Shown piece by piece: positions 9,501 to 25,594 of a stretch of 60,065 nucleotides of DNA (within the stretch, counting starts at the first letter, position 1; every line of letters starts with the position of its first letter). Below the pieces are notes generated by a model, which was given only the letters and a program-made list of their open reading frames with translations, did no database searches and was not told the origin of the DNA. Source of the DNA: Candidatus Andersenbacteria bacterium RIFCSPHIGHO2_02_FULL_46_16 (lineage in GTDB: Bacteria; Patescibacteriota; Andersenbacteria; UBA10190); contig MHHQ01000032.1 of the NCBI GenBank assembly GCA_001817065.1, positions 1-60,065 on the forward strand, in the 5' to 3' direction. Both the position numbers and the translations under genes were made by a program.

Positions 9501-10316
9501 ATGATTATTGACGCACATACTCACATCGGAGACATGGGTAAAGATGACCGTGTGGTGACCGTAGCTGATTTACTCGAGTCAATGGATGACGCGCATATTG
9601 ATATGTCTTTAATTCTCGCGAATGACATTATCGTACCGAATGATTGGCACGGCGTGACCGCTGATGATGTTCTAACCCAACGTGCAGAAAATGAGCGGAT
9701 AAAAGTAATCGGCAATATTTCCATCAGCCGAGATATCAAAGCTCAACTCATGCAACTCCAATCCCATATTGAAACTGGAGCCATCGTTGGGATTAAGATG
9801 TATCCTGGCTACGAAAACTTCGACTCCACAGACAAACGATTAATGCCGGTGTATGAGTTCTGCCAGAAATTGCATGTCCCCGTTATACTTCACACAGGAT
9901 TTCTCCTGCAGGGATCTTCTGGTATTCAAGAACAAGCTCATCCTAACAGTATTGGCAAGATTGCTACACTTTTTCCCGAGATCACCATAGTAATGGCTCA
10001 CTTTGGCAATCCTTGGACAATCGAGGCGGCTAAGATCATTGCACAACATCAAAACGTATATGCCGATCTTTCTGGGTTTTTTACGGAATATGATGAGCAT
10101 ATCTCATTAGATGAAAAGGCTGATTTTCAACAAAAAATGAAAGAATTTGTTCATATTACTGGCAATCTAAAAAAATGCCTTTTTGGTACTGATTGGCCGC
10201 TCTATAGCCAGAAGGAATACCTGGCGGCAATGCAAGAATTGCCGATGAATGATGAAGAGCGCGAGCTGGTGTTTTCGAAAAATGCGATTAAGGTATTTGG
10301 TCTCGAAAAGGAGTGA
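9501..10316 (+). CDS. metal-dependent amidohydrolase (TIM barrel)
   Basis: N-terminal IIDAHTHIG; later HTG and AHFG His motifs. Confidence 0.8.
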   Translation: MIIDAHTHIGDMGKDDRVVTVADLLESMDDAHIDMSLILANDIIVPNDWHGVTADDVLTQRAENERIKVIGNISISRDIKAQLMQLQSHIETGAIVGIKMYPGYENFDSTDKRLMPVYEFCQKLHVPVILHTGFLLQGSSGIQEQAHPNSIGKIATLFPEITIVMAHFGNPWTIEAAKIIAQHQNVYADLSGFFTEYDEHISLDEKADFQQKMKEFVHITGNLKKCLFGTDWPLYSQKEYLAAMQELPMNDEERELVFSKNAIKVFGLEKE

Positions 10317-11238
10317 TGGTGTATTTCTTTAATATCAGACAGGGACGATAGCCTTTTTTAGCTTCCCTTAATCCGGGCAGCCCAGCATCCTGCTCAAGGT
10401 TCAGGTAGCGACAACCACGAGCTGCTAGCGCTCGGGCTGTTTCCTGTCTCAAAAAAGGATAGATTCCTATAAATGAAGTAGCATCCGCTTTTTCAAAATG
10501 CAAGAGTGCGTATGACATGCCAACTACTTCGCTGATAGAAAATCCAATTAACTGGTTATCAACAAATACACCAATGGTGACAAGTTGAAACGACTTAGCA
10601 CTTTCCAGAAGGCGCTGGAATGGAAGAAACTCATCGACCTTCTCTGGCTCAAAGCCTTTCTGTTTTGCCCAGAACGAAAACAGTTCTTGGATCATCATTT
10701 GAACGTTGGGATTACCTAAATCACACTCATTCATGGTTGATCGATAAAGCTTGTGGAAACGATTTACAAAATTCTTCTTCCCTCGCAGTGAGCGACCTCC
10801 ATATGTCATGAGTTCGGGAATCGATAGAATATAATCAAAATTATTTGGGTCTTCCTTAATCGTAAACTGATCTGCTCTAATTCCTTGAATGCATTCCTCG
10901 GGTACTAAACGTAAAGTCTGCTTCTGGCCCTCACCATCAATAAAATCAAATAACTGGCCAAGGGCTTTTTGAGATATTTGATGGCCAAGAAATGAGTAAA
11001 AAGGCTCACCAGTAAAGTAGTCAGTAAATTTCACTATGAGGTTTTTATCGAGTTGGGAGAACTGCATCCCATTCTTTACATTCCAAATCCATAAACTGGT
11101 AAAATTGTAGTCTGAGTAAGGCAAAAAATCTTGCGTAAAGGATTCAATCGCAGACCGGTCTGCGAGCTCTATTTTTTTGAAATTTGGAAATTGAGGAATC
11201 ACGTTCGTCATACTATGGCAGTAATCACTATTTTTCAA
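10288..11238 (-). CDS. DUF2156 (MprF C-terminal, aminoacyl-tRNA transferase-like) domain protein, paralog 1
   Basis: FPNFKKIEL...PYSDYNFTSLWIWN...GEPFYSFLG; clear paralog of 23590-24498. Confidence 0.7.
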   Translation of the reverse strand: MKNSDYCHSMTNVIPQFPNFKKIELADRSAIESFTQDFLPYSDYNFTSLWIWNVKNGMQFSQLDKNLIVKFTDYFTGEPFYSFLGHQISQKALGQLFDFIDGEGQKQTLRLVPEECIQGIRADQFTIKEDPNNFDYILSIPELMTYGGRSLRGKKNFVNRFHKLYRSTMNECDLGNPNVQMMIQELFSFWAKQKGFEPEKVDEFLPFQRLLESAKSFQLVTIGVFVDNQLIGFSISEVVGMSYALLHFEKADATSFIGIYPFLRQETARALAARGCRYLNLEQDAGLPGLREAKKGYRPCLILKKYTITPFRDQIP

Positions 11239-11289
11239 ATAATTCGCTTTTCACTAGCCTAATGGCAGCTAATAAGGTAGTTTCAAAAA

Positions 11290-12366
11290 ATGAACGATAC
11301 CCCACCCATTGTGAATTCTTTTAATGAATGGGACCCCTTGGAGGAGGTTATTGTTGGCGTTATTGAGGGATCCACCATACCTGAATGGCATGTGACCCTT
11401 GAAGCAACTATGCCAAAAGAGCACCAAAACCTATTTCGCCAAAATGGCGGAAAATTATTCCCGGAGAGTCAAATATCTGCAGCTAAAAAAGAACTAGATG
11501 ATTTCTGCCACATACTAGAATCAGAAGGAGTTACTGTTCGCCGGCCTGATTCAACTTACTTTAATAAGCCATATTCTTCTCCGGAATGGACTGCTCAAGG
11601 TGGCTTCTATGCGGCGATGCCGAGAGACATATTACTAGTGATAGGTAATGAAATAATCGAATCTCCTATGGCGTGGAGATCCAGATACTTTGAGATTGTA
11701 GCCTACCGCTCTCTTCTAAAGGATTACTTTGAGAAGGGAGCAAAGTGGAGTGCGGGACCTAAGCCCTTGCTGAGTGACAGGCTTTATAATTATGACTACG
11801 GTAAAGACCCTAACCAGGATAAGTTAGAATACGCAATCACTGAACACGAACCTGTCTTTGATGCGGCCGATTTTCTACGGTGCGGAAAAGATGTCTTTGT
11901 GCAACAAAGCAATGTTACCAATCGGTTAGGTATTGAATGGTTACAAAGACACTTAGGGAGCACATACAGGATTCATACATTGCAGTTTGAAGACCAGCAT
12001 CCCATGCATATTGATGCAACTATTATGCCATTGGCCCCTGGTAAACTTCTCATCAATCCCGATAGAGTAAAGGAAATCCCTCCCATGTTTAAAGGCTGGG
12101 ATATTTTGCCTGCGCCTCGACCAGCTATCCCAGATGAACAACTGCTTTACTTTACAAGTAAATGGATCAGCATTAATGTTTTAATGCTTGATGAGAAAAG
12201 AGTGATTGTGGAGAAAAACGAACTACCATTAATAAGTTCCCTCAAACAGTGGGGATTTAAGGTAATCCTTTGTAGTTTCCGTAATTTTAATACATTTGGT
12301 GGCTCATTTCATTGCGCCACAGTAGACATAAGACGAAGAGGTACCCTCCAATCATATTTTGATTAG
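11290..12366 (+). CDS. amidinotransferase (glycine/inosamine amidinotransferase family)
   Basis: NEWDPLEEVIVG N-terminus and C-terminal GGSFHCATVDIRR (catalytic Cys). Confidence 0.85.
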   Translation: MNDTPPIVNSFNEWDPLEEVIVGVIEGSTIPEWHVTLEATMPKEHQNLFRQNGGKLFPESQISAAKKELDDFCHILESEGVTVRRPDSTYFNKPYSSPEWTAQGGFYAAMPRDILLVIGNEIIESPMAWRSRYFEIVAYRSLLKDYFEKGAKWSAGPKPLLSDRLYNYDYGKDPNQDKLEYAITEHEPVFDAADFLRCGKDVFVQQSNVTNRLGIEWLQRHLGSTYRIHTLQFEDQHPMHIDATIMPLAPGKLLINPDRVKEIPPMFKGWDILPAPRPAIPDEQLLYFTSKWISINVLMLDEKRVIVEKNELPLISSLKQWGFKVILCSFRNFNTFGGSFHCATVDIRRRGTLQSYFD

Positions 12367-12390
12367 TTCGAGACGCTTAAATTTACCAGA

Positions 12391-13596
12391 TCAAATTTTT
12401 CCAATTGCTCTCTCCAGTAAATCAATATCTCTTGTAACACAAATCCGTGTCCAAGAGCCTTCAATCATAGGATCAAGCATAAATGCCTCACTAGGATAAC
12501 TGGCTAAGCCTTTGTTCATATATTCCTTTACAAAATCTGATGCGGGAAGATCTTTGTAGTAGCGAAAGAAAACGCTATTACCGCCGTCGGGAGGAATGAC
12601 GTCTTTTATTTTCGGGTGACTCTTTAGTTTAGTAACTATACGTTTGTTGTACCGTTCTTGTAGGTTTCTATTATGCAAAATTGTTTCCGCATAGTCTGCA
12701 ATTTCTTGCTCTGAATAATACTTCAGATCAGCGTGTTTGGTTCCTGAAATTTCCTTGTAGCGTAATGCAATATCGAGAAGAAGTAGATAGTCTGAGATAA
12801 TGCCATTAGAAATATTTCTGACCATTTGAATTCTTTCAATGCTGGGGAGCAGTCTCTTGTCACCCACACAGTAACCGCAACGAATTCCAGTCATCCCTGG
12901 TCTATCTTTAGACGGACCAAAAAACTTTACATAGTTTTTATAGCTCCCATTGACCTCAGCGATATGGATTGGTTGTTTATCACTATACAGAGAATCAATA
13001 TAGATTTCATCAGACAATATGAAAAAATCATAGCGATGCGATAGCTTTACTAATTCAGCAACCCATTCACGAGAGAATGATTTACCTGTTGGGTTATTGG
13101 GATTAGAGAAAAGGACGGCCGCCGTTCTTCCATTCACAGCATTCTCTAGCTGCTCAACTGTCGGCAAATAATCATTATCACGTAAAGAATGGATTATAGT
13201 AGGTACTCCTTTCGCACTTTCAACCACGGAATGAAATATGGGGTACTCCGGCGAAAACAATATAACTTCTCGCTTATTATCGTCTAAGTTAAACACTGCT
13301 TGAAGCACAGGATATATAAGATTGCTAACCCCGCTTCCAATAAACGAAAAAGGTTGATCGCTTATGTTGCTTCGAGCTAGATACTTTTCATACTCAATCA
13401 CCAATTCTCTCAGGCGTTTAATGCCACCAAAGTCAGAATACGTTAGCCTGTGGTATTCAAATACCAAGTCAATGGCGCGTTTAAAGATTATGGGCATTTT
13501 AAATACGCGTGTATCATAGTCCATCCATTCCAGCCGTTCTAAGTCTTCAAATTCAAGAAATTTCTTCTCGTAGTCAAACATCCTTTTATAAATCAT
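12391..13596 (-). CDS. PLP-dependent aminotransferase, class I/II
   Basis: NPNNPTG and SKDRPGMTGIRCGY (PLP-Lys) motifs. Confidence 0.8.
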   Translation of the reverse strand: MIYKRMFDYEKKFLEFEDLERLEWMDYDTRVFKMPIIFKRAIDLVFEYHRLTYSDFGGIKRLRELVIEYEKYLARSNISDQPFSFIGSGVSNLIYPVLQAVFNLDDNKREVILFSPEYPIFHSVVESAKGVPTIIHSLRDNDYLPTVEQLENAVNGRTAAVLFSNPNNPTGKSFSREWVAELVKLSHRYDFFILSDEIYIDSLYSDKQPIHIAEVNGSYKNYVKFFGPSKDRPGMTGIRCGYCVGDKRLLPSIERIQMVRNISNGIISDYLLLLDIALRYKEISGTKHADLKYYSEQEIADYAETILHNRNLQERYNKRIVTKLKSHPKIKDVIPPDGGNSVFFRYYKDLPASDFVKEYMNKGLASYPSEAFMLDPMIEGSWTRICVTRDIDLLERAIGKI

Positions 13597-13610
13597 ATGG
13601 GAATAGCAAA

Positions 13611-14015
13611 TTATACATTCTTTTCAAACACGAAACCACGCCGAATTATTTTGACCTTAAATTTTCTGAGATCATACGTCGAAAACTCTCTTTTAATGGT
13701 ATCAATCGCAACTTTTGTTTTTGCCCATGTACTGCATGTAAAAAGGTCAATGGCGATATATTTCTCCTCCGGCCACGTATGAAAGGCAAGGTGAGATTCT
13801 GAAAGCAGATAAAAACCAGTCAATCCAAATCCTTTAAACTCATGAAATTCTTTTTTGATAACACTAAGTTGTGCACGGTGAACAACATTATCGATTTTCT
13901 GCCCGAATGTTGGTGAATAGTATAGTTCCTCTGGATAGTCCCCCAAAAAGATCTCAATCAGGGTATGATATCCGCGATTTTGATTATTTCTTCTCTTAGA
14001 AAAGATCTCTAACAT
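13611..14015 (-). CDS. speD: S-adenosylmethionine decarboxylase proenzyme (pyruvoyl, class 1)
   Basis: LSESHLAFHTWPE self-processing/active-site motif. Confidence 0.85.
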   Translation of the reverse strand: MLEIFSKRRNNQNRGYHTLIEIFLGDYPEELYYSPTFGQKIDNVVHRAQLSVIKKEFHEFKGFGLTGFYLLSESHLAFHTWPEEKYIAIDLFTCSTWAKTKVAIDTIKREFSTYDLRKFKVKIIRRGFVFEKNV

Positions 14016-14901
14016 AGCTGGCTGATTCTAAGCTTTTATTTTGGAAATTTGGGACAGTGAAAATGGATCGGAGATTCCGTGGAGTGATGAATTTTAGATC
14101 CATCTTGGAATTCATGAGTTTTTTAAATTGCCCTTCAGTCATATCTACGGGATTCAAGTGCTGATTGTTAGTGGCAAGCAAGAATCCCCAAGAACACTCA
14201 AAGAATGGTATATACGCCCGATAAGAAAAGACCTTAGTAAAAATATTTTGCATGAGTTTACTCATGGCTAAATGCTTGTGGTAGTGTATTTCGGTTAGCT
14301 CGGAAGAGTGCATAGCCAATATGCCGTTCGATTTTAACCTTCTTTTAATTAGTTCATAAAAATCAGCTTGTTTGTGAGCTTCCACCGCGCCAAGATTGAA
14401 AAAGTTGACATCAGTAATATCTGAAATTATCACATCGTATTGATTGTCTGTTCCTTTAAGGAAATCGCCTGCGTTTTTAAATTGTAAATGCACTTTCGGG
14501 TGGTTATACGAATTGTGATGCATTTCCTTAAGATGATTTTGAAATAGCTGAACTGCCTGACGATCAACATCAATAGCATCAATATTTTTGATAAATTCGT
14601 ACTTTAGTAACTCTCGCAAAGAAGCGCCCTCGCCAGCACCTAATACCAATATACGAAAATGGTCTGTGCGCTGGCTACAAACCATTGCAGGATGTACCAG
14701 ACATTCATGGTATATCCATTCATCTTTAACCGCGCTCTGTGGTATACCATCGATAAATAAGCACAATCCATAATCAAAGAGATCATAAATCTCTATCTTC
14801 TGAAAAGGTGTCTGCTCTTGCACTATAACTTCTTTAACCCGATGGCGGATTATCTCATTTGTACAGTAGGCATCTTCAGCCCATTCTTGCCGTAATAACA
14901 T
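13996..14901 (-). CDS. speE: spermidine synthase-like aminopropyltransferase
   Basis: ILVLGAGEGASLRELLK, DVIISD; N-terminal beta-hairpin domain (QKIEIYD). Confidence 0.8.
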   Translation of the reverse strand: MLLRQEWAEDAYCTNEIIRHRVKEVIVQEQTPFQKIEIYDLFDYGLCLFIDGIPQSAVKDEWIYHECLVHPAMVCSQRTDHFRILVLGAGEGASLRELLKYEFIKNIDAIDVDRQAVQLFQNHLKEMHHNSYNHPKVHLQFKNAGDFLKGTDNQYDVIISDITDVNFFNLGAVEAHKQADFYELIKRRLKSNGILAMHSSELTEIHYHKHLAMSKLMQNIFTKVFSYRAYIPFFECSWGFLLATNNQHLNPVDMTEGQFKKLMNSKMDLKFITPRNLRSIFTVPNFQNKSLESASYVRDLF

Positions 14902-14903
14902 TG

Positions 14904-15908
14904 CTAGTAGCTAGAATGAGGGTTAGCTCCAGTAATTGGTCGTGTCTGGAATATGTAGAGGTTCTTATCAGAAAAGGACCATTCAATGTCCTGAGGAGCT
15001 TGCATGACCTTTTCAATTCTTGATGCCGTTTTAGCAACAATCATAATCGCTTCTCCCGTGAGTTTTTGATTCTTCTGTTCTTCTTTATCTATATTCTTTT
15101 GTAGTTTCTTCCCTTTGTAACTAATGAGTTTTTTATTTTGAGAACCTTCCTCGATATCGATAATTATTCCTTTTCTCTTGTCGATCCAATATCTATCTGG
15201 TGTTACATCACCATGAACTAAAAGTTCACCAAGTCCCCAGATGGCTTCAATAACAATCAGATTGGAATCATGACTACCTGGATCTTTCGTAAAACATACC
15301 CCAGATACTTCACTATTGATCATTTGCTGAACAATCACGGCCATATCACTGGCAAAAGGCAAATTATGTTTATACGCGTACATCAACGCTCGGGGGGTGT
15401 AGAGAGATGCCCAACATTTCTTAATATGCTGCATGAGACCACTTGCATTGATAAAGGTGTAGGTATCGAATTCTCCTGCCCACGAGTGAGATTCTTGATC
15501 CTCGGAGGTCGCTGAGGATCGTACAGCTACATAGTTAGCATCAAGTTCTTGAAAAGCGGCATTAATTTCTTCCTCACCATGATGAGAAATTTCCAATTCT
15601 TCCACAAGTTCTCGTAAATTTTGAGACACGTAATCTACATTTTTCATTTTTGAATCTCGTAGCTCGGTAAGATGGCGATGTATTTTTCTATCTAATCCAT
15701 TTGAGGTTCTGATATCACTCAAAACTGTGGAAAGAACGACAAATCCATTCGGAACATCGATATGGTTAGTTACTAACGTTCCTAGGTTCAAGGCTTTGCC
15801 ACCTATCTTCTTTACGTCGAATTTATGTGCCTGCGCTAATGGTATAGTTACTTTTGCCATATCACATTGCCAATTAGATAATCGAAACCTTTGCATTAGT
15901 AGCATCAA
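14904..15908 (-). CDS. PEP/pyruvate-binding (PPDK_N, ATP-grasp) domain protein
   Basis: KIGGKALNLG, AVRSSATSED motifs. Confidence 0.8.
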   Translation of the reverse strand: MMLLMQRFRLSNWQCDMAKVTIPLAQAHKFDVKKIGGKALNLGTLVTNHIDVPNGFVVLSTVLSDIRTSNGLDRKIHRHLTELRDSKMKNVDYVSQNLRELVEELEISHHGEEEINAAFQELDANYVAVRSSATSEDQESHSWAGEFDTYTFINASGLMQHIKKCWASLYTPRALMYAYKHNLPFASDMAVIVQQMINSEVSGVCFTKDPGSHDSNLIVIEAIWGLGELLVHGDVTPDRYWIDKRKGIIIDIEEGSQNKKLISYKGKKLQKNIDKEEQKNQKLTGEAIMIVAKTASRIEKVMQAPQDIEWSFSDKNLYIFQTRPITGANPHSSY

Positions 15909-19540: not shown

Positions 19541-19550
19541 AGATTACCAT

Positions 19551-20021
19551 ATGCATATCTATGTCACATCCGGCACGGGAACTGGCTCTACTCCATTAGC
19601 TGCGTTTGATGCGGCAGTTATGGCAGCCAGTGAATCAAACCATAATATGATTTATCTTTCTTGCTTTATTCCCCCCGGCAGTGTGATAGTACGTGCTCAA
19701 AACCCTCTTTTACTTAAGTCCTGGGGTCAGCGAATTTATGTTGTGATGTCGCGTCAAGATACCTCTGAGCTAGGACAGGAAGCTTGGGCTAGCCTGGGTT
19801 GGGTACAAGATCAGAGTGGGCGAGGAATGTTTGTTGAGCATCATGGAGGCAGTAAGGAGACTGTCCACAATGCCATTCAAGCCACTCTAAAGTTTATGAT
19901 TACAAGCCGTAAAATGGACTTTGGCCCAATTGAATATGAATTTACAGGTATCAAATGTGAAGACCAGCCAGTATGCGCCATAACAATGGCGGTGTACAAA
20001 ATTGAAAATTGGGAAAGTTAG
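19551..20021 (+). CDS. pdaD: pyruvoyl-dependent arginine decarboxylase family protein (Ser-Cys at the processing site)
   Basis: TSGTGTGSTPLAAFDAA...YLSCFIPPGS aligns with the ...ISSIMPPG self-cleavage region of PvlArgDC. Confidence 0.75.
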   Translation: MHIYVTSGTGTGSTPLAAFDAAVMAASESNHNMIYLSCFIPPGSVIVRAQNPLLLKSWGQRIYVVMSRQDTSELGQEAWASLGWVQDQSGRGMFVEHHGGSKETVHNAIQATLKFMITSRKMDFGPIEYEFTGIKCEDQPVCAITMAVYKIENWES

Positions 20022-20074
20022 TTCGGTAGCCTTAGATTAACTCTTTTTAGCACACCTTCCTTAGGCAGAGAGAA

Positions 20075-20551
20075 TTACTGAGAACTTTTTTCTTGTAAGT
20101 CTCTAATCTTTTTCTCTGCACCAGCGATATCTATAACTCCCTTCGCAACTGTAAATACATCCTCGGGAGTAGTTTTTGCTTTGACGATATAGTCAGCCGC
20201 CTGTAAGTCTCTTGCCCGGTCATGATCCTGCTTAGTGTCTAAGTTGGAGAAAATAATAACTGGAATATCTCTTATCTCCGGATCACCCTTCAACATAATC
20301 AAAAAGTTGAACCCGTGGTTCTTATCAACTTCGGTAACAGGTGTGTTTGGTTCTTTGCCAAGGATAAGGTCAAGCAGGATCACATCAGGTTTTTGCTCTC
20401 GGGCAATTTTATCGCCCTCGACTGTGTTTATAGCAGTAAGAAAAGTAATTTCCTCATGGGTACGAGCTGTCATCTCATACAGCTTAAGCAACATCGGATC
20501 GTCATCAATCATAAGGATCTTCCTTTTTGCTACACTTTTGGAATCAGTCAT
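20075..20551 (-). CDS. response regulator, receiver domain only
   Basis: ILMIDDD...PDVILLDL... Confidence 0.85.
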   Translation of the reverse strand: MTDSKSVAKRKILMIDDDPMLLKLYEMTARTHEEITFLTAINTVEGDKIAREQKPDVILLDLILGKEPNTPVTEVDKNHGFNFLIMLKGDPEIRDIPVIIFSNLDTKQDHDRARDLQAADYIVKAKTTPEDVFTVAKGVIDIAGAEKKIRDLQEKSSQ

Positions 20552-20577
20552 TGGTATTAGTTTAAAAATTATGAATA

Positions 20578-20982
20578 TTAAGAGGTCTGATTACTAAGGA
20601 ACTGATGAACACGCTCAACAATTTCTCGAGGCAGAAATTTTGCTTTCAAAATATAGTCAGCTGCTCCTAGCCGTTTTACTTCCTCCGCCATATCTCTTTC
20701 CCGTTTATTAGACAGGATAATTACCGGAATTTTTGCAGTTTCGGGATCTCCTTTAATTTTCTTCAAAACCTCTAGGCCGTCGAGATCTAATGTTCCCTCT
20801 AAAATAAGATCGAGCAATACGACATCAGGATGCTCTTTCTTTACAGTATCTATTCCTTCCTGAGCTGTAGCCACTGCTTTGAAATTGTTATACCCCAACT
20901 GTTTAAACTGAAAATCATACATGAAGCGATGCTGCTTGTTATCTTCTATCATCAGTATTTTAGAATCTGTGATTTCAGGCAT
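20578..20982 (-). CDS. response regulator, receiver domain only
   Basis: ILMIEDN...PDVVLLDL...K. Confidence 0.85.
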   Translation of the reverse strand: MPEITDSKILMIEDNKQHRFMYDFQFKQLGYNNFKAVATAQEGIDTVKKEHPDVVLLDLILEGTLDLDGLEVLKKIKGDPETAKIPVIILSNKRERDMAEEVKRLGAADYILKAKFLPREIVERVHQFLSNQTS

Positions 20983-20992
20983 AGGATTACGG

Positions 20993-22399
20993 CTAACGAG
21001 GTTGCTGTAAAGGAAGGGTTACCCTAACCGTGGTTCCTTTGCCAACCCCCTCACTCTCCAGCATAACACGTCCGTTATGTTCTTCGACAATCTTTTTGAT
21101 AATGAAGAGGCCTAAACCGCTGCCATCGGTAAACATTCGTTCTGACCGTTGCCCACGTACAAATTTGCCAAATAGTTTCGGTATTTCTACCGGATCAACG
21201 CCCATACCCGTATCCGTAATGGCGACTTCGATTTCATTGCCCATGAGAGTAGCTTTTACGGTCACGCCGCCTTTCTCGGTGTATTTTTCAGCGTTATCAA
21301 TAATGTTCAGAAACACCTGGCGTAAATATGCTGGATCAGCTTCTACCTTTGGCAACGGCTGGTCAGGCGTATTAAACACCAAGGATAATCCTTTTTTGTC
21401 GTAACTCAGTTTCAGAGTATTTACTGCTTCATCAATAATAGTTTCAACTTGGACTGATTCTATCTTAAAGTTAAGGCTGCCTCCTTCCAGCTCCATTGCA
21501 TCAAGCAGATCATTAACAATACTGTTGAGTTGAGTAGCACCACTGAACATGTTTTGTTGCAGCTCTCGGCGCTCTTCGGTGGGAAGCTTGTCAAATTCTC
21601 CTTTAGCCTGCATTTCCAATAATCCACGCAGGCTAGTAAGAGGAGTCCGTAATTGATGAGACGCTATATGCAAGAATTCGGTCTTGATATCCATTAATTC
21701 CTTCAGATGCTTATTAGCGCTACTTAACTGTCTAGTGGTGCGCTGCAAATCTTCATAAATTTTTGCCTTATACATAGCTAGCGAAGTGAGACTGACCACG
21801 CCCTCAATCGATTCATGTTCGTATTTACTTAATTCATGAAGATTTCGATCAGAGCTGAATGTAAGTTCGCCTAAGGCCTTCTGTTCAAAGAAGAGTGGAT
21901 ATATGACGGAGCTCTGTATTCTACCCATTACACTTTCGGCATCTGAATCCTTAAGCTGTTGCGTTAATTCACTTGGAAAAACACCGTCGATTGCTTTAAC
22001 AAAGACAGGCTCCCGTTGTGCTCCTGAAAGGATATGAACTGAAGCAAGAGAACTCGTTACTGGTGCTTGAAGAGTGCGCGGTGCAAAGTCATTTAGCGTA
22101 GCAGCTAGCTCGGGCTCAGAAGAAGCTAGAGCCAACCATTTCAATGTGTTAGTTTTCTCGTCAACGATGGCTACTGATACTATCTCGTAACTAAATTCAA
22201 CAGCAATAGCTAACACAATCTCTCTTGCCATATTGTCCATGCCAAGAGCAGAGAGCGATATTTCATCTAGTTTTCTCAGTAGGTCAAGCGTCTTAATACG
22301 CACTGCCAATTCCGCATTGCGTTTGTATAGCTCGCGATTAACCTCTTGAACATCTTCTGAGGTACCTTCAGTCTTGTCCTGATCTTCGGATGCTGTCAT
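20993..22399 (-). CDS. cytoplasmic sensor histidine kinase
   Basis: H-box ASHQLRTPL; N, G1 (DTGMG) and G2 (GSGLGL) boxes; no TM segment. Confidence 0.9.
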   Translation of the reverse strand: MTASEDQDKTEGTSEDVQEVNRELYKRNAELAVRIKTLDLLRKLDEISLSALGMDNMAREIVLAIAVEFSYEIVSVAIVDEKTNTLKWLALASSEPELAATLNDFAPRTLQAPVTSSLASVHILSGAQREPVFVKAIDGVFPSELTQQLKDSDAESVMGRIQSSVIYPLFFEQKALGELTFSSDRNLHELSKYEHESIEGVVSLTSLAMYKAKIYEDLQRTTRQLSSANKHLKELMDIKTEFLHIASHQLRTPLTSLRGLLEMQAKGEFDKLPTEERRELQQNMFSGATQLNSIVNDLLDAMELEGGSLNFKIESVQVETIIDEAVNTLKLSYDKKGLSLVFNTPDQPLPKVEADPAYLRQVFLNIIDNAEKYTEKGGVTVKATLMGNEIEVAITDTGMGVDPVEIPKLFGKFVRGQRSERMFTDGSGLGLFIIKKIVEEHNGRVMLESEGVGKGTTVRVTLPLQQPR

Positions 22400-22431
22400 A
22401 GAGAGCAGTTACCAATTCATACGCCCTCTAG

Positions 22432-22710
22432 CTATCGAAGAGCAGTTGGCAACTGGTCTTCAGGAATTTTTGCAATATAAGGACGGACAGCGTCTCGACA
22501 TACATCGCGAGACAACTGACCAAAAAGTCGTTCGTAGCGTCCAACAAGTGATTCAAGAACTGCTTTCACATCACCTTCTACATAGACCATGTGCGCAGTT
22601 GAATCAAGTCGTAAACCGGGAACTTTTCCAGCTTCTTTCCAAGCTATAGGACCAATAATGAGTTCCTGTTCTTTAATGATTTGAGTTGCAACTCGGTCTT
22701 TAATATCCAT
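22432..22710 (-). CDS. hypothetical protein
   Basis: ORF packed 3 nt from its upstream neighbour; no motif recognised. Confidence 0.4.
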   Translation of the reverse strand: MDIKDRVATQIIKEQELIIGPIAWKEAGKVPGLRLDSTAHMVYVEGDVKAVLESLVGRYERLFGQLSRDVCRDAVRPYIAKIPEDQLPTALR

Positions 22711-22713
22711 AGT

Positions 22714-23541
22714 CTAACTTTCATCAATCTTCTTAAACGTAACCCCCAACTGAATCAACCCTATAGCCATCAAGCAATATGAGACAAAATACATGTAGTC
22801 ATTTACCCCGCCCACATACCACTGTTCATTGCTGGCTTCATACAAGAATATAAAATCAGAAAAATATTGGACTATCAGAGCAACTAACAAAAAAGACATT
22901 GGTTCTCTCATCATTCCACCGAGTGCCTTTCTTGACGCCAGAAAAGCAATGGTTGCAATTGAAACGTATATTGCTTGCCCAAAGGGATAACCTAAATCAA
23001 GAAATACTTTCAGGGGTTGGCTCCAGTCAAATTCATATCCTCGCAAAAATAAGATATAGGAAAGACCTAATAGAATAAGAGGGATAATAATCGCTTGCGC
23101 CTGTCCCACTAAGGATCGCAACGAAAAATTAACTCTCAGAACTCGCGCAAGGAGTAGCACACCATATAGATAGAAAATGACGCTGCCAAAATACCCAACA
23201 TCTCCCATAGAAGGGTACGGAACTTCTATTCCTAAAACATATATATAATAAGCGTATGCTGCTTGACCGAACGTTTGTGCAAGTAATCCTAAAGAGAGAA
23301 CAAATAATGAACGACCAATAATACTCTTTAACCCCCCCCATTTATTCGAGATCAATAAACCAACTACGCCTCCAATTAACGAAATCCAAGGATAAATCAA
23401 AGTAAAGGCATTATTCTCAAAACCACTTGTTAAGTCTCTCCAGTAGATGGTGACCCACCATAAAGATAAGACAATAAACACACTCAGAATAAAACGGGCT
23501 ATCCAGCTTCCTTGAATCGTTTCAGAAAAACCCTTCCACAT
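22714..23541 (-). CDS. polytopic membrane protein (about 8 TM)
   Basis: Repeated hydrophobic spans. Confidence 0.6.
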   Translation of the reverse strand: MWKGFSETIQGSWIARFILSVFIVLSLWWVTIYWRDLTSGFENNAFTLIYPWISLIGGVVGLLISNKWGGLKSIIGRSLFVLSLGLLAQTFGQAAYAYYIYVLGIEVPYPSMGDVGYFGSVIFYLYGVLLLARVLRVNFSLRSLVGQAQAIIIPLILLGLSYILFLRGYEFDWSQPLKVFLDLGYPFGQAIYVSIATIAFLASRKALGGMMREPMSFLLVALIVQYFSDFIFLYEASNEQWYVGGVNDYMYFVSYCLMAIGLIQLGVTFKKIDES

Positions 23542-23589
23542 ACTAAAATAATAGCACTGGAATGCTTATAATGTCACTTTTTGTTAATT

Positions 23590-24498
23590 TTAATCAGTAG
23601 AGATACTGCTAATTACATATTTCCTCAAAAAACATACTGGCCTAAAGGCGGTTTTAGAATACCTTAACCCTGAAACCCCTAGATCTTGCTCGTAATTCAG
23701 CAGTGCACAACCCCGTGATATTAAAGCATCAGCAGTCGCTTGCATTAAGTAGGAATAAACTCCAGAAAAGTTGATATTAGCTTTTACAAAATGAGATATT
23801 GCATACCTACTAGTAAGCACTTCATTGATAGAAAATGCTACCGGTGACTTATCTACCAGTACGCCTATACTGATTAATTGAAAACTGTTCGTGGGGAATA
23901 ACAAGCGGGCCATAGCATCTTCTTCATTATCCAGTCGATAGCCTTTATTTTTTTCCCACTGCTGATTTAATTCTTGAACTATTTCCCGATCGCTTACCTT
24001 GGTTAAATCAAGAGCTACTACTTCAATGTTTTTATATTTCCGAGTAAAGCGATTCTTCATGTTACGCTGCTGCTCATAGCTACTGCCTTTGTACTCTCGC
24101 AACTTTTCCAAATCGTAGATGTAATCAAAATTACCTGGATCTTCGCTAACGGTGAAAGGATTAATTTTAACTCCTTTAATAGAATCTTCTGGTATAAGCA
24201 TTAGTGATGGAAGACGCCCCTCACTTATTACAAAAGCTATCAAACTCTCAATTGTGCTGTTAACATCGTGCCCCCCTAAAAATGAATAAAAAGGCTCGCC
24301 CGTAATATAATCATTAAACTTAATAACTAAGTTCTTATTAAGAAATGAAAAACAAGCTTCACCCTTCGTGTCCCAACTCCACAGGCTTGTAAAATTATAA
24401 TCAGAATAAGGAGGATATTGTTTTGTAAAATCCTCGATAACTTTCTTATCGGTAATTTCAAGTTTCTTAAACGTAGGAAATTCAGGAATCATTGCCAT
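23590..24498 (-). CDS. DUF2156 (MprF C-terminal-like) domain protein, paralog 2
   Basis: FPTFKKLEI...PYSDYNFTSLWSWD...GEPFYSFLG. Confidence 0.7.
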   Translation of the reverse strand: MAMIPEFPTFKKLEITDKKVIEDFTKQYPPYSDYNFTSLWSWDTKGEACFSFLNKNLVIKFNDYITGEPFYSFLGGHDVNSTIESLIAFVISEGRLPSLMLIPEDSIKGVKINPFTVSEDPGNFDYIYDLEKLREYKGSSYEQQRNMKNRFTRKYKNIEVVALDLTKVSDREIVQELNQQWEKNKGYRLDNEEDAMARLLFPTNSFQLISIGVLVDKSPVAFSINEVLTSRYAISHFVKANINFSGVYSYLMQATADALISRGCALLNYEQDLGVSGLRYSKTAFRPVCFLRKYVISSISTD

Positions 24499-24544
24499 TA
24501 TTTAAGGGTAACACTTAGGACTACAGTCATAAACACATGTTATG

Positions 24545-24581
24545 AAAAAACCTGAGGGCTCGAATGCGAACCGCTCAGGTT
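24545..24581 (-). terminator. rho-independent terminator
   Basis: Minus strand AACCTGAG-loop-CTCAGGTT followed by TTTTTT, just downstream of 24596-24997. Confidence 0.6.
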
Positions 24582-24595
24582 GACTCTCGCTTTGA

Positions 24596-24997
24596 TCATC
24601 CCGACTCCATGATCACAATGGCGACGATGGCCAAAATGATACCCGCCCACTTCTGAGCAGAAATATCCTCATGGAATACAAGATTGCTCACCGCAATGAT
24701 GAAAATGCAGTTTGAGAGCAAGAAAAGAATCACGCAGTGAGCCAGGGGACCCTTTTTCAACATGAGTAGAAAGAGGGTGAGGGCTACTACCCAAGACAGA
24801 TAGCCGCTTGCGATCAACCACCATTTCCCACCATGCTTAGCCCACTGGTTCAAAAGCGCATCACCAATACCTCCTACAAGCCCCGCCGAGATTGCCAGAA
24901 GATAGAATGCCCATCGAGGCATATCCATGGTAGATCTCCCGTTTTTGGTGCCAAATAAGAAAGAACGAACTGACTCCGCACAATACATGAGTCCCAT
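24596..24997 (-). CDS. small 4-TM transporter (SMR/EamA-half-like); likely start is the internal Met (MDMPRW...)
   Basis: Four hydrophobic helices, about 110 aa core. Confidence 0.5.
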   Translation of the reverse strand: MGLMYCAESVRSFLFGTKNGRSTMDMPRWAFYLLAISAGLVGGIGDALLNQWAKHGGKWWLIASGYLSWVVALTLFLLMLKKGPLAHCVILFLLSNCIFIIAVSNLVFHEDISAQKWAGIILAIVAIVIMESG

Positions 24998-25030
24998 TGA
25001 AGTGTCAATGGCCGTTGTGGTAAAAAATGC

Positions 25031-25390
25031 CTACCCTCGCTCTACTATCGTCGATTTGACACTCTGTGCTTGAAAATAAGTTTTTGAGAATTCTTCGGCT
25101 TTATTAGCATCAAAATCTTTACAGCTGAGTATATCAATAAAAGCTCGATTGCCGACCTCGTCTAAATGAACCGTCACGGAGGAGGTTTCAATAAATTGCA
25201 TGGCAGAGTACCCCTCAAGGTCACCTTGCCCAAATCGCTCAACGTAACATTCTCCTTGAGCAACCATATCAACTACGGTAACGACTTCGACTACGAATCG
25301 TTTTAGTCCTTCAGGGCTAATTAATTTGTCATGGTCACACCCAGCCAGATCAATGGCCAAGGACTTACCCCATGGCTTAATTTTATCCAT
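25031..25390 (-). CDS. S-adenosylmethionine decarboxylase-related (pyruvoyl) family protein, second copy
   Basis: FIETSSVTVHLDE...DILSC resembles the ES(S/H)..H processing motif. Confidence 0.55.
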   Translation of the reverse strand: MDKIKPWGKSLAIDLAGCDHDKLISPEGLKRFVVEVVTVVDMVAQGECYVERFGQGDLEGYSAMQFIETSSVTVHLDEVGNRAFIDILSCKDFDANKAEEFSKTYFQAQSVKSTIVERG

Positions 25391-25402
25391 GTATTAAATA
25401 TA

Positions 25403-25594
25403 CTAAAAATCGTTTATAAAAACACATATATCTGGATCAACAAGGCTACATCGTACGAATACCAGTACCAAACGCTCAGCTAAAAGACCTCCGTCAGTGC
25501 CTGTACCAGCAATTACTACGGTAGCCTGCGACAATCTTTCCTGTTCAGTAGGAGAGATAAGTCCAATATTTCGGCTGAATCTTGAATCATCCAT
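25403..25594 (-). pseudogene. N-terminal fragment of a ThiF/MoeB/E1-like adenylyltransferase
   Basis: RFSRNIGLI...VVIAGTGTDGG (Rossmann GxGxxG), terminated after 63 aa. Confidence 0.5.

What the first reader, a model, noticed from the sequence alone, without database searches (positions are those of the whole stretch)
10288..25594. Arginine/SAM-derived guanidino-polyamine-like biosynthetic cluster with activation, condensation and tRNA-dependent transferase genes
Within 15 kb the cluster encodes:
- pyruvoyl arginine decarboxylase
- AdoMet decarboxylase (plus a second divergent copy)
- a SpeE-like aminopropyltransferase
- an amidinotransferase
- a class I/II aminotransferase
- two PaaK/F390-synthetase-like adenylating enzymes
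- a split PPDK_N + PEP-utilising phospho-His pair (the architecture of PpsA, rifampicin phosphotransferase and PigC-type enzymes)
- two paralogous DUF2156 (MprF C-terminal-like) proteins bracketing the cluster
- a small 4-TM transporter
- an embedded histidine kinase + two receiver proteins + an 8-TM protein

Genes 13611-19540 overlap or abut one another (13996-14015, 15874-15908, 17040-17043, 18146-18149).

ArgDC + AdoMetDC + aminopropyltransferase is the established route to N1-aminopropylagmatine, as in Thermus. Here no agmatinase or ureohydrolase is present, and an amidinotransferase is. The product therefore probably keeps or gains guanidino groups and is then acylated or aminoacylated.

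I do not recognise this gene combination as a described pathway. It is also surprising in what looks like a reduced genome.
Basis: partly seen in the sequence, partly recalled or inferred. Interest (0 to 1): 0.8.

Follow-up and report, generated by a model that had tools for sequence, protein, structure and literature searches.

The report
Guanidino-polyamine conjugate gene cluster in CPR
A tiny-genome groundwater bacterium (Candidatus Andersenbacteria) carries a conserved, undescribed 16-kb gene cluster. It probably makes and exports an acylated or aminoacylated guanidino-polyamine, and it is built from two gene modules that each recur elsewhere in the Candidate Phyla Radiation.

Summary
The "amidinotransferase" is a clear AGAT/HsvA/SxtG-type enzyme (E about 1e-125). 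The SpeE-like protein is closest to the Thermus agmatine aminopropyltransferase.

The interval is not one homogeneous pathway. It is two separately conserved modules, interleaved.

- **Module A:** two PaaK-like ligases, a split rifampin-phosphotransferase-like dikinase and a class-I aminotransferase, with or without Amidohydro_2. It occurs alone in Saccharibacteria and Wildermuthbacteria. In six loci AdoMetDC + SpeE fill one fixed slot. In five loci it also carries the amidinotransferase and a rare Ser→Cys pyruvoyl arginine decarboxylase.
- **Module B:** a free-standing DUF2156, a 7/8-TM protein, a 92-aa protein and a histidine kinase, often with an EamA transporter and an arginine-type decarboxylase. 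It is CPR-wide (≥259 loci).

The modules are joined in at least three different gene orders, which argues for a functional link.

The best reading is a phevamine-like guanidino-polyamine conjugate. The product, the acyl unit and the kinase substrate are all inferred. I found no described pathway that matches.

The parts
9501..10316 (+). Amidohydro_2 metal-dependent hydrolase/decarboxylase-family protein.
   Evidence: Pfam PF04909 E 1e-32. N-terminal HxH motif seen in the sequence. Orthologues at 42% identity sit between PPDK_N and the aminotransferase in L007 and L014. Conserved next to DUF2156a in L012.
10288..11238 (-). DUF2156a, a free-standing homologue of the MprF C-terminal aminoacyl-tRNA transferase domain (double GNAT).
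   Evidence: PF09924 E 3.8e-25. 79% orthologue in L012 and 47% in L098, adjacent to module A. An NJ tree places a and b as an Andersenbacteria-specific duplication.
11290..12366 (+). L-arginine amidinotransferase of the AGAT/HsvA/SxtG type.
   Evidence: PDB phmmer hits SxtG 4.5e-126, HsvA 1.2e-125 and AGAT 2e-122, full length. The C-terminal FHCATVDIRRRGTLQSYF motif carries the catalytic Cys. Co-occurs with module A in the window, L012, L098, L259 and the ERR12035939 contig.
12391..13596 (-). Class-I PLP aminotransferase, the most conserved member of module A.
   Evidence: PF00155 E 6e-27. Best NCBIfam hit is GntC at 131 bits, far below its 415-bit cutoff. 47-59% identical orthologues in L007, L010, L014, L015 and L098.
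13611..14015 (-). Bona fide class-1 S-adenosylmethionine decarboxylase (AdoMetDC1).
   Evidence: TIGR03330 83.8 bits against a 75.65 cutoff. Motif LSESHLAFHTWPEE includes the Pro that is diagnostic of true AdoMetDC.
13996..14901 (-). Aminopropyltransferase, closest to the Thermus triamine/agmatine aminopropyltransferase.
   Evidence: PF01564 E 1e-30. The best PDB hit is T. thermophilus SpeE 1UIR/3ANX at E 1e-44; the next best is 1.5e-30.
14904..15908 (-). PPDK_N ATP-grasp subunit of a split dikinase. The true start is probably near 15860.
   Evidence: PF01326 E 3.5e-79. Aligns to the N-terminal 300 residues of PpsA, Rph, PigC and RedH models. Gene callers give 318 aa.
15874..17043 (-). Substrate-binding helical domain plus phospho-His swivel domain subunit of the split dikinase.
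   Evidence: PF00391 E 5e-26 at residues 313-383. His348 is invariant in 16 orthologues. AF2 pLDDT 91.5. Foldseek top hits are rifampin phosphotransferase RPH-Lm, E 1e-10. No PEP/pyruvate TIM-barrel domain.
17040..18149 (-). PaaK-like adenylate-forming ligase 2 (short form).
   Evidence: PF00501. The NCBIfam hit to DVU1553-family ligase (144 bits) is below its cutoff. PDB hits are PaaK 4R1L at 6e-23 and the PaaK-like ligases 6SIW and AjiA1 at 1e-13.
18146..19540 (-). PaaK-like adenylate-forming ligase 1. The start codon is uncertain; gene callers give 440-455 aa.
   Evidence: PF00501; PDB PaaK 4R1L at 3e-21.
19551..20021 (+). Pyruvoyl-type arginine decarboxylase homologue carrying Cys38 in place of the pyruvoyl-precursor Ser.
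   Evidence: PF01862 E 4e-22. Alignment to M. jannaschii PvlArgDC shows that the beta chain ends at window S37 and that Ser53 corresponds to window Cys38. D35, N47 and E109 equivalents are conserved. Ser-Cys is conserved in L012, L098 and L259. Only 1 of 150 family representatives shares it.
20075..20551 (-). Stand-alone receiver protein RR2 (module B).
   Evidence: PF00072 E 3e-10, with no output domain.
20578..20982 (-). Stand-alone receiver protein RR1 (module B).
   Evidence: PF00072 E 6e-20.
20993..22399 (-). Soluble histidine kinase (module B).
   Evidence: HisKA + HATPase_c. Adjacent to orf92 in 58 of 78 CPR DUF2156 loci. The kinase core is 40% identical to the 7TM-HisKA kinase of L260.
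22432..22710 (-). Conserved 92-aa protein of unknown function (module B).
   Evidence: No Pfam or NCBIfam hit. Present in 58-63 of 78-79 CPR DUF2156 loci.
22714..23541 (-). Conserved membrane protein of about 8 TM helices, 7TM-receptor-like (module B).
   Evidence: No Pfam hit even at E<10. 422 homologues, 50-60% identical across CPR. AF2 pLDDT 87.5. Foldseek gives only weak GPCR/rhodopsin hits with TM-score 0.4-0.5 and no MprF hit. Adjacent to DUF2156 in 63-64 of 78-79 loci.
23590..24498 (-). DUF2156b, the CPR-wide module-B copy of the aminoacyl-tRNA transferase homologue.
   Evidence: PF09924 E 1.4e-25. The subfamily is found in at least 259 loci of GTDB species representatives.
24596..24997 (-). 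Half-size (4-TM) EamA/DMT transporter.
   Evidence: PF00892 E 1e-7. Weak ArnE hit. A full-length EamA (about 300 aa) occupies this position in 50 of 78 CPR loci.
25031..25390 (-). AdoMetDC-fold paralogue of the neofunctionalised (Orn/Arg decarboxylase) type (module B).
   Evidence: PF02675 E 1.4e-16, but TIGR03330 scores only 34 bits against a 75.65 cutoff. Motif QFIETSSVTVHLDE lacks the AdoMetDC Pro. Same-type genes abut DUF2156 in L196, L203, L205 and L232 and never co-occur with PvlArgDC there.

Best explanation
The interval (better drawn as 9501-25390) is a composite small-molecule locus. It is made of two gene modules that are independently conserved in Patescibacteria and have become physically and, I infer, functionally coupled in the Andersenbacteria lineage.

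**Module A.** It consists of two PaaK-like adenylating ligases, a two-subunit rifampin-phosphotransferase-like dikinase, a class-I aminotransferase, and Amidohydro_2 nearby. I read it as an assembly line that activates carboxylic acids and joins them to an amine.

In this lineage the amine would be made on site:
1. Arginine is decarboxylated to agmatine by the Ser→Cys PvlArgDC.
2. Agmatine is aminopropylated to N1-aminopropylagmatine by the Thermus-like SpeE, using decarboxylated AdoMet from AdoMetDC1.
3. The AGAT/HsvA-type amidinotransferase adds or moves an amidino group. That would give a bis-guanidine of the hirudonine or arcaine type, or an amidinated intermediate.

**Later steps.**
- The ligases then N-acylate the amine, with the acyl unit shaped by the aminotransferase.
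- A DUF2156 enzyme adds an aminoacyl residue from aminoacyl-tRNA.
- The dikinase phosphorylates a hydroxyl or enol of the intermediate or product.
- The EamA protein exports the product.
- The 7/8-TM protein, the 92-aa protein, the histidine kinase and the receivers sense and regulate.

**Shown versus inferred.** Shown: family identities, conservation of catalytic residues, gene order, co-conservation and module structure. Inferred: every substrate, the order of steps, the product and export.
For: **1. Family identities.**
- Amidinotransferase: E about 1e-125 to SxtG, HsvA and AGAT.
- SpeE: best match is the Thermus agmatine/triamine aminopropyltransferase.
- Most SpeE enzymes aminopropylate agmatine (PMC11107197).
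- AdoMetDC1 scores above its equivalog cutoff and has an intact ESH...HTWPE motif.

**2. Co-conservation.**
- L012, a second Andersenbacteria species, has the whole block at about 80% identity with different flanks.
- L098 has the order DUF2156, PvlArgDC, PaaK1, PaaK2, PEPut, PPDK_N, SpeE, AdoMetDC, AT, amidinotransferase at 40-64% identity.
- The ERR12035939 contig has module A inserted between DUF2156/orf275/orf92 and AdoMetDC2/EamA-like genes.
- L259 has amidinotransferase + AT + dikinase + PaaK x2 + PvlArgDC.

**3. A fixed slot for aminopropylation.** AdoMetDC + SpeE fill the same slot, between PPDK_N and AT, in six loci. These include Saccharibacteria L015, where they appear as an AdoMetDC-SpeE fusion plus a second SpeE, and L260.

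**4. A marker of specialisation.** The rare Ser→Cys PvlArgDC is found only in the module-A-linked copies: the window, L012, L098 and L259. All 17 module-B-only copies are Ser-Ser, as are 140 of 150 family representatives.

**5. Operon structure.** Overlapping or abutting genes on one strand.

**6. Precedents.**
- Phevamine A is amidinospermidine + Val + Phe, made by HsvA plus two ligases (PMC6187163).
- Aminoacyl-tRNA-dependent GNAT-fold transferases act on small-molecule amines (PMC12945691).
- Free-standing DUF2156 enzymes are aminoacyl-tRNA-dependent (PMC8913301).

**7. Dikinase fold.** Closest to rifampin phosphotransferase, with no PEP/pyruvate domain.
Against: - **Core occurs alone.** Module A's core appears without any polyamine, ArgDC, amidinotransferase or DUF2156 gene in L007, L010, L013 and L014. 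Its chemistry therefore does not require a polyamine.
- **Module B is independent.** It is CPR-wide and almost always lacks module A. Adjacency here could be incidental or regulatory.
- **DUF2156 acceptors.** Every characterised DUF2156 enzyme in the paper I read (PMC8913301) aminoacylates lipids, not soluble amines.
- **PaaK-likes unresolved.** They score far below every equivalog cutoff and could be plain CoA ligases.
- **ArgDC may not mature.** The Ser→Cys change could prevent pyruvoyl formation.
- **Amidinotransferase acceptor unknown.** The family is about 65% identical across many phyla, and sequence does not separate HsvA-like from AGAT-like or SxtG-like specificity.
- **No chemical evidence.** None is available.
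Confidence: 0.45

Rival explanations
1. Two or three unrelated functions lie side by side.

- **Module B:** an envelope and stress cassette. DUF2156 would aminoacylate membrane lipids as a free-standing MprF-like synthase. The decarboxylase plus EamA would form an arginine/agmatine acid-resistance or exchange system. Both would be governed by the 7/8-TM protein, orf92 and the histidine kinase.
- **Polyamine genes:** ordinary spermidine supply. The amidinotransferase would replace the missing aminopropylagmatine ureohydrolase by passing the amidino group of N1-aminopropylagmatine to ornithine, giving spermidine + arginine.
- **Module A core:** an independent product.
For: - Module B occurs in at least 259 CPR loci, nearly always without module A.
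- All characterised DUF2156 enzymes act on lipids.
- The half-EamA has a weak ArnE (lipid-linked sugar flippase) hit.
- Two non-homologous decarboxylases substitute for each other next to DUF2156/EamA: 17 + 17 loci, never both.
- Amidinotransfer is reversible through a Cys-amidino intermediate (established AGAT mechanism, from my own knowledge).
- No ureohydrolase was found in the window.
- The module A core occurs without polyamine genes.
Against: - Module A is found inserted inside module B, or abutting its DUF2156 and decarboxylase, in three different arrangements: the window/L012, the ERR12035939 contig and L098.
- AdoMetDC + SpeE always sit inside the module A operon at one fixed slot, in six loci including ones with no ArgDC. 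That is odd for a housekeeping pathway.
- The module-A-linked ArgDC is a distinct Ser→Cys lineage.
- orf275 shows no structural match to the MprF flippase.
Confidence: 0.27
2. Module A is a salvage or catabolic route rather than a biosynthetic one. An aminotransferase, aryl-acid or acyl-CoA ligases, a phenylphosphate-synthase-like split dikinase and an Amidohydro_2 (de)carboxylase would process scavenged aromatic or other organic acids and amino acids. The polyamine genes would be passengers.
For: - The PaaK-likes are nearest to phenylacetate-CoA ligases.
- A split PPDK_N plus His-domain pair is the architecture of phenylphosphate synthase, and PF04909 includes reversible aromatic decarboxylases (both from my own knowledge).
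- An aromatic ammonia-lyase lies 2-4 kb from module A in L260.
- CPR bacteria depend on scavenging.
Against: - There are no oxidoreductases, thiolases or other downstream catabolic genes in any of the loci.
- The fixed insertion of AdoMetDC + SpeE, and the repeated linkage to amidinotransferase and ArgDC, fit construction rather than breakdown.
- The dikinase substrate domain resembles RPH, not PpsA.
Confidence: 0.12
3. The gene combination is a chance juxtaposition on a low-GC genomic island with no shared function.
For: The 6-36 kb region has GC 0.40, against 0.475 for the housekeeping genes at 36-58 kb. It also holds Abi_C, an HD protein and a type III restriction-modification system.
Against: - The block is conserved as a unit with different flanks in L012.
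- It is conserved at 40-64% identity in L098.
- The genes overlap as in an operon.
- PADLOC finds no defence-system match.
Confidence: 0.04

Closest known systems
Phevamine A pathway (hsvABC of Pseudomonas syringae and Erwinia amylovora)
   Same: An AGAT-family amidinotransferase (HsvA; window protein E 1.2e-125) puts a guanidino group on a polyamine. Two ATP-dependent ligases then attach carboxylate units (Val, Phe), giving a small cationic conjugate.
   Different: - hsv has two ATP-grasp ligases. This cluster instead has two PaaK-like ANL ligases and one or two DUF2156 aminoacyl-tRNA transferase homologues.
- hsv uses the cell's own spermidine. This cluster encodes ArgDC, AdoMetDC and SpeE itself.
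- hsv has no split dikinase, aminotransferase, Amidohydro_2, transporter or sensor kinase.
- The host is a CPR bacterium rather than a plant pathogen.
Thermus thermophilus / Thermococcus N1-aminopropylagmatine route to spermidine
   Same: Arginine decarboxylase, AdoMetDC and an agmatine-accepting aminopropyltransferase. The window SpeE's best solved relative is the Thermus enzyme. The pathway is described in PMC11107197.
   Different: - The defining last enzyme, aminopropylagmatine ureohydrolase (arginase fold), is absent from the window.
- An amidinotransferase is present instead.
- The genes are embedded in a ligase/dikinase operon.
MprF / aminoacyl-phosphatidylglycerol synthases and free-standing DUF2156 enzymes (ErgS)
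   Same: The same DUF2156 double-GNAT domain. Free-standing versions exist and use aminoacyl-tRNA.
   Different: - There is no fused flippase or TM domain.
- The adjacent 8-TM protein does not resemble the MprF membrane domain.
- The CPR subfamily is tied to a histidine kinase, a 92-aa protein and an arginine-type decarboxylase.
- The acceptor is unknown.
Rifampin phosphotransferase (RPH) / PigC-RedH type ATP-grasp + swivel-His dikinases; phenylphosphate synthase as a split precedent
   Same: ATP-grasp PPDK_N, a substrate-binding helical domain and a C-terminal phospho-His swivel domain. Foldseek top hits are RPH-Lm.
   Different: - It is split into two polypeptides.
- The substrate domain has no sequence-level relative in the PDB beyond about 60-90 residues next to the swivel domain.
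- The substrate is unknown.
- It belongs to a large CPR/DPANN family in which many His-domain paralogues accompany a single PPDK_N gene.
Neofunctionalised AdoMetDC homologues (SpeDA/SpeDC; Li et al. 2023, PMC10407285)
   Same: The window's second AdoMetDC copy lacks the Pro that is diagnostic of true AdoMetDC. It has Gln and Thr residues (QFIETSS) that may correspond to two of the four positions the paper gives as diagnostic for the ODC group. The paper reports such genes in CPR.
   Different: The published examples sit in spermidine or homospermidine clusters. Here, and in L196, L203, L205 and L232, the gene abuts DUF2156/EamA. Its substrate (Orn or Arg) was not determined.

Membership tests
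Phevamine (hsv) biosynthetic system | HsvA-type arginine:polyamine amidinotransferase | tested here: met
   E 1.2e-125 to HsvA (5wpi), with the catalytic Cys motif present. Scores to SxtG and AGAT are equally high, so the acceptor specificity is unresolved.
Phevamine (hsv) biosynthetic system | Two ATP-grasp amide ligases (HsvB, HsvC) | tested here: not met
   No ATP-grasp ligase is present in the cluster. The only ATP-grasp fold is the PPDK_N dikinase subunit.
Phevamine (hsv) biosynthetic system | Product is an amidinospermidine-amino acid conjugate | not testable with these tools
   Needs LC-MS of an expressing host.
N1-aminopropylagmatine route to spermidine | Arginine decarboxylase | tested here: inconclusive
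   PF01862 scores 79 bits against a 22.7 cutoff, but NCBIfam scores 56 against 107. D35, N47 and E109 equivalents are present, yet the pyruvoyl-precursor Ser is Cys.
N1-aminopropylagmatine route to spermidine | AdoMetDC plus agmatine-accepting aminopropyltransferase | tested here: met
   TIGR03330 is above its cutoff. The best solved relative is the Thermus agmatine/triamine aminopropyltransferase. Activity on agmatine is inferred.
N1-aminopropylagmatine route to spermidine | Aminopropylagmatine ureohydrolase (arginase fold) | tested here: not met
   No arginase or agmatinase family hit among the window ORFs scanned (left flank). The rest of the genome could not be checked.
MprF-type aminoacyl-lipid synthase | DUF2156 synthase domain | tested here: met
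   PF09924 scores 89 and 90 bits against a 27.5 cutoff.
MprF-type aminoacyl-lipid synthase | Integral-membrane flippase/anchor domain | tested here: not met
   Both DUF2156 proteins are about 300 aa with no TM segment. The neighbouring 8-TM protein has no Foldseek match to MprF.
MprF-type aminoacyl-lipid synthase | Aminoacyl-tRNA donor and lipid acceptor | not testable with these tools
   Specificity cannot be read from sequence (PMC8913301).
RPH/PigC-type dikinase | PPDK_N ATP-grasp domain | tested here: met
   PF01326 scores 267 bits.
RPH/PigC-type dikinase | Swivel domain with catalytic His | tested here: met
   PF00391 scores 90 bits. His348 is invariant in 16 orthologues.
RPH/PigC-type dikinase | RPH-like substrate-binding domain preceding a C-terminal His domain, in one polypeptide | tested here: inconclusive
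   Foldseek top hits are RPH-Lm at E 1e-10 with TMq 0.42-0.49. However, the enzyme is split into two genes. NCBIfam scores (209 and 66 bits) are far below the Rph, PigC and RedH cutoffs of 999-1350.
PEP synthase / PPDK | C-terminal PEP/pyruvate-binding TIM-barrel domain | tested here: not met
   No such domain is present in either subunit.
Phenylacetate-CoA ligase PaaK | Equivalog-level similarity | tested here: not met
   TIGR02155 scores 82 and 69 bits against a 646 cutoff. The P-loop is present. The proteins belong to the PaaK-like clade of the ANL superfamily only.
AdoMetDC (for 25031-25390) | Equivalog score and conserved Pro after the processing site | tested here: not met
   34 bits against a 75.65 cutoff. 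The motif is HLDE instead of HTxPE.

The most novel reading that the evidence does not exclude
Patescibacteria possess a widespread, undescribed cassette: a free-standing DUF2156, a 7TM-like protein, a 92-aa protein, a histidine kinase, an EamA transporter and an arginine decarboxylase. It would use aminoacyl-tRNA to aminoacylate agmatine, or to build an agmatine-linked envelope or secreted molecule.

In the Andersenbacteria lineage this cassette has captured a ligase/dikinase module, aminopropyl transfer and amidino transfer. Together they would make a phevamine-like bis-guanidino polyamine conjugate that acts on the host cell during episymbiosis. The decarboxylase in this pathway would form its pyruvoyl cofactor from cysteine.
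Probability: 0.15. Interest if true: 0.85.

Novelty: new variant of a known kind. Interest (0 to 1): 0.62.

Why it matters
- **Unusual investment for a small genome.** CPR bacteria have very small genomes and are generally thought to have almost no specialised metabolism. A conserved cluster of 16-19 genes (about 16 kb) devoted to one cationic small molecule would be a large commitment. It is a candidate mediator of their episymbiotic lifestyle. Phevamine suppresses host immunity, and N1-aminopropylagmatine is reported to antagonise host mitochondrial function (PMC12749970 title).
- **New enzymology to test.**
  - A tRNA-dependent DUF2156 enzyme possibly acting on a soluble amine.
  - A split RPH-like dikinase.
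  - A Cys-type pyruvoyl decarboxylase.
  - An amidinotransferase that may stand in for a ureohydrolase.
- **A separate lead.** The CPR-wide DUF2156 / 7TM / kinase / decarboxylase cassette is a conserved, uncharacterised feature of a very large bacterial radiation.

Tried and rejected
- **orf275 as a detached HisKA_7TM sensor domain.** BLASTP against the 7TM kinases of L098 and L015 found nothing, and Pfam found nothing at E<10.
- **orf275 as an MprF-like flippase.** Foldseek gave only weak GPCR/rhodopsin hits and no MprF hit.
- **Riboswitch control (guanidine, SAM).** No Rfam hit in 8-27 kb.
- **Operon boundaries from promoter and terminator scans.** Counts were at chance level.
- **Anti-phage defence system.** No PADLOC hit apart from generic HATPase.
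- **Aminotransferase as a GntC equivalog.** 131 bits against a 415 cutoff, so rejected.
- **CYTH as a conserved partner.** The CYTH genes near module A in L007, L015 and L098 do not detect one another by tblastn.
- **DUF2156a as a distinct module-A-specific clade.** The NJ tree shows a and b as a recent lineage-specific duplication, with L098 as sister.
- **Single-sequence locus search with DUF2156a.** It found only 6 loci, so an alignment was needed.
- **Literature.** Searches for a described pathway with this gene set found none. The HsvA structure paper was not held, so acceptor-specificity residues could not be compared.

Full report
**Source and observation.** The window is a Rifle-aquifer metagenome contig, identical to GCA_001817175.1 MHHV01000067.1. 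It comes from Candidatus Andersenbacteria, a member of the CPR/Patescibacteria.

Pfam and NCBIfam reproduce their family assignments. The one weak call, the "amidinotransferase" with a Pfam ADI hit at E 0.005, was settled by a PDB sequence search. That search gave SxtG 4.5e-126, HsvA 1.2e-125 and human AGAT 2e-122 over the full length, with the C-terminal catalytic FHCAT motif.

Gene overlaps and gaps in the minus-strand operon are -20, +2, -35, -4 and -4 nt. The 35-nt overlap depends on a TTG start that gene callers do not use. No arginase-fold gene turned up among the window ORFs scanned. There is no tRNA gene and no riboswitch in 8-27 kb.

**Enzyme details.**
- **SpeE.** The SpeE-like protein's best solved relative by a wide margin is the Thermus thermophilus triamine/agmatine aminopropyltransferase (1e-44 against 1.5e-30 for the next hit). 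Published work shows that most spermidine synthases aminopropylate agmatine (PMC11107197).
- **AdoMetDC1.** It exceeds its equivalog cutoff and carries the ESH...HTWPE motif.
- **AdoMetDC2.** The second copy (25031-25390) scores 34 bits against a 75.65 cutoff and lacks the Pro that marks true AdoMetDCs. This places it with the neofunctionalised Orn/Arg decarboxylases described by Li et al. 2023.
- **PvlArgDC.** The homologue aligns to the M. jannaschii enzyme so that the beta chain ends at window Ser37 and the pyruvoyl-forming Ser53 corresponds to window Cys38. The D35, N47 and E109 equivalents are kept.
- **Dikinase His subunit.** The 389-aa PEP-utilizers protein has an invariant His348 and no PEP/pyruvate domain. 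Its AF2 model (pLDDT 91.5) has rifampin phosphotransferase as top Foldseek hits (E 1e-10; profile match). Together with the separate PPDK_N gene it forms a split RPH/PigC-type dikinase.
- **PaaK-likes.** Both sit well below all equivalog cutoffs. Their nearest structures are PaaK and PaaK-like ligases.

**Module A.** Orthologues of the His-domain subunit are rare. There are about 20 full-length relatives in 5.8 billion proteins and five loci among the 185,579 GTDB species representatives. Their contexts define a conserved core of PaaK1, PaaK2, PEPut and PPDK_N, usually with the class-I aminotransferase.

| Locus | Lineage or source | Filling the slot between PPDK_N and AT | Amidinotransferase + Ser→Cys PvlArgDC |
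|---|---|---|---|
| L007 | metagenome | Amidohydro_2 | no |
| L014 | Saccharibacteria | Amidohydro_2 | no |
| L010 | metagenome | none (AT divergent upstream) | no |
| L013 | Wildermuthbacteria | none seen | no |
| L100 | metagenome | none seen | no |
| L015 | Saccharibacteria | AdoMetDC-SpeE fusion + second SpeE | no |
| L260 | SRR22315508 | SpeE + AdoMetDC | no |
| L259 | SRR22387757 | none | yes |
| window, L012 | Andersenbacteria | SpeE + AdoMetDC | yes |
| ERR12035939 contig | Logan assembly | SpeE + AdoMetDC | yes (Cys not checked, no DNA) |
| L098 | metagenome | SpeE + AdoMetDC | yes |

Three conclusions follow.
- The core chemistry does not need polyamines.
- Aminopropyl transfer has been recruited repeatedly at one position.
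- The amidinotransferase and the ArgDC travel together with the core.

The module-A-linked ArgDC is a distinct lineage. Ser-Cys is conserved in the window, L012, L098 and L259. All 17 ArgDCs next to module-B-only DUF2156 genes are Ser-Ser. Only 1 of 150 family representatives shares the Cys.

**Module B.** A profile of the DUF2156 proteins found at least 259 loci in GTDB representatives, overwhelmingly CPR. I clustered the neighbours in the 78 best of these loci.

| Neighbour within 5 kb of DUF2156 | Loci (of 78) |
|---|---|
| orf275 (8-TM protein) | 63 |
| orf92 | 58 |
| Soluble histidine kinase | 58 |
| Full-length EamA | 50 |
| Receiver | 19 |
| PvlArgDC | 17 |
| AdoMetDC-fold decarboxylase | 17 |
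| Both decarboxylase types together | 0 |
| Either decarboxylase type | 34 |

Two unrelated pyruvoyl decarboxylases therefore substitute for each other beside DUF2156/EamA. This argues that a decarboxylated basic amino acid, most simply agmatine, belongs to this cassette's function.

orf275 has 422 homologues, all unnamed and 50-60% identical. Its confident AF2 model resembles 7TM receptors only weakly and does not resemble MprF. The window's genes from 20075 to 25390 (the two receivers, the kinase, orf92, orf275, DUF2156b, the half-EamA and AdoMetDC2) are therefore one copy of a CPR-wide cassette, not extras embedded in a biosynthetic cluster.

**Coupling of the two modules.** The modules are joined in at least three different arrangements.
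- In the window and L012, a duplicated DUF2156 flanks module A. The NJ tree shows that the a and b copies arose by a lineage-specific duplication.
- In the ERR12035939 contig, module A sits between DUF2156/orf275/orf92 on one side and AdoMetDC2/EamA-like genes on the other.
- In L098, a single DUF2156 and the ArgDC abut PaaK1.

The block is conserved with different flanks in L012. Its GC content is 0.40, against 0.475 for the neighbouring housekeeping genes. It lies beside Abi_C, an HD protein and type III restriction-modification genes. All this is consistent with a mobile island. PADLOC finds no defence match for the cluster itself.

**Mechanism.** The best-supported reading is a specialised polyamine-conjugate pathway.
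1. Arginine is converted to agmatine by the PvlArgDC.
2. Agmatine is converted to N1-aminopropylagmatine by SpeE with AdoMetDC1.
3. The amidinotransferase adds or transfers an amidino group.
4. The two PaaK-like ligases N-acylate the amine, using an acid shaped by the aminotransferase.
5. DUF2156 adds an aminoacyl residue from aminoacyl-tRNA.
6. The split dikinase phosphorylates an intermediate or the product.
7. The EamA protein exports the product.

The closest characterised analogue is phevamine A. There HsvA amidinates spermidine and two ATP-grasp ligases add Val and Phe (PMC6187163). Small-molecule aminoacylation by tRNA-dependent GNAT-fold enzymes has precedent. All substrates and the product are inferred.

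The main rival holds that module B is an envelope and stress cassette, with lipid aminoacylation plus an arginine/agmatine system. In that reading the polyamine genes supply spermidine, and the amidinotransferase substitutes for the absent ureohydrolase (aminopropylagmatine + ornithine giving spermidine + arginine). The characterised DUF2156 enzymes all act on lipids, which favours this rival. The fixed operon slot of SpeE/AdoMetDC and the interleaving of the modules count against it.

**Novelty and verdict.** No paper in the held library describes this gene combination or the CPR-wide DUF2156 cassette. All the enzyme families are known. The system is best filed as a new variant of a known kind, namely a guanidino-polyamine conjugate pathway of the phevamine type. 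It uses different ligation chemistry, makes its own polyamine and adds a dikinase.

Noticed in passing
L017-L091 and L103-L177 (for example L042, L044, L061, L049, L088): Of 70 CPR/DPANN loci of at least 15 kb, 43 carry 2-8 separate PEP-utilizers (His-swivel) genes but never more than one PPDK_N gene. This looks like a family of split dikinases in which one ATP-binding subunit serves many substrate-specific subunits.
   Followed up: partly
window 19551-20021 (residues S37-C38); L012, L098, L259 orthologues: This pyruvoyl arginine decarboxylase lineage has Cys instead of the pyruvoyl-forming Ser. The change is conserved down to 62% identity and is shared by only 1 of 150 family representatives. 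It implies either Cys-derived pyruvoyl formation or a changed function.
   Followed up: partly
window 25806-32981: A defence-type island lies directly beside the cluster: an Abi_C protein, an HD-domain protein, and a type III restriction enzyme (Res, 27284-29971) with its methylase (Mod, 30858-32981). The whole 6-36 kb stretch has GC 0.40, against 0.475 for the housekeeping genes at 36-58 kb.
   Followed up: partly
L015 5278-6894; L098 14127-15740; L260 4209-5855; L257 9084-10907: A 7TM-HisKA histidine kinase recurs next to module A, or next to the amidinotransferase in Berkelbacteria. The L260 and L098 copies are 37% identical over 534 aa. A ThiF-like protein (L098, L260; L257 is weaker, 35% over 110 aa) and an unknown protein of about 510 aa (L257, L260; 30% over 436 aa) recur nearby.
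   Followed up: partly
L260 16815-18380: An aromatic amino-acid ammonia-lyase (PF00221) lies 2-4 kb from module A with SpeE/AdoMetDC. It hints that the PaaK-like ligases might activate cinnamate-type aryl acids, as in plant phenolamides.
   Followed up: no
L258 1-9071: Another amidinotransferase (65% identical) sits in a different cluster. That cluster has Amidohydro_2, an APH-type kinase, a class-III aminotransferase, an AMP-binding ligase, an aldehyde dehydrogenase and a class-Ib aminoacyl-tRNA synthetase paralogue. The functional mix is analogous to the window cluster.
   Followed up: no
L093 6900-7452 and 7604-9937: The PvlArgDC ORF has an in-frame stop, so it is either a pseudogene or read with an alternative code. 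A 777-aa NB-ARC/STAND NTPase carries an orf275-like membrane domain.
   Followed up: no
window 8825-9436: A Peptidase_S51 protein (PepE/cyanophycinase-like; beta-Asp-Arg dipeptidase family) lies just outside the cluster. It is not conserved next to the cluster in L012.
   Followed up: partly
window 37560-41938: An MBOAT membrane O-acyltransferase, a weak GDSL-like protein and an acetyl-CoA synthetase lie together in the higher-GC part of the window.
   Followed up: no
L007 5040-5591; L015 6896-7474; L098 1221-1766: CYTH-domain genes lie near module A in three loci, but they are not detectably related to one another by tblastn.
   Followed up: yes
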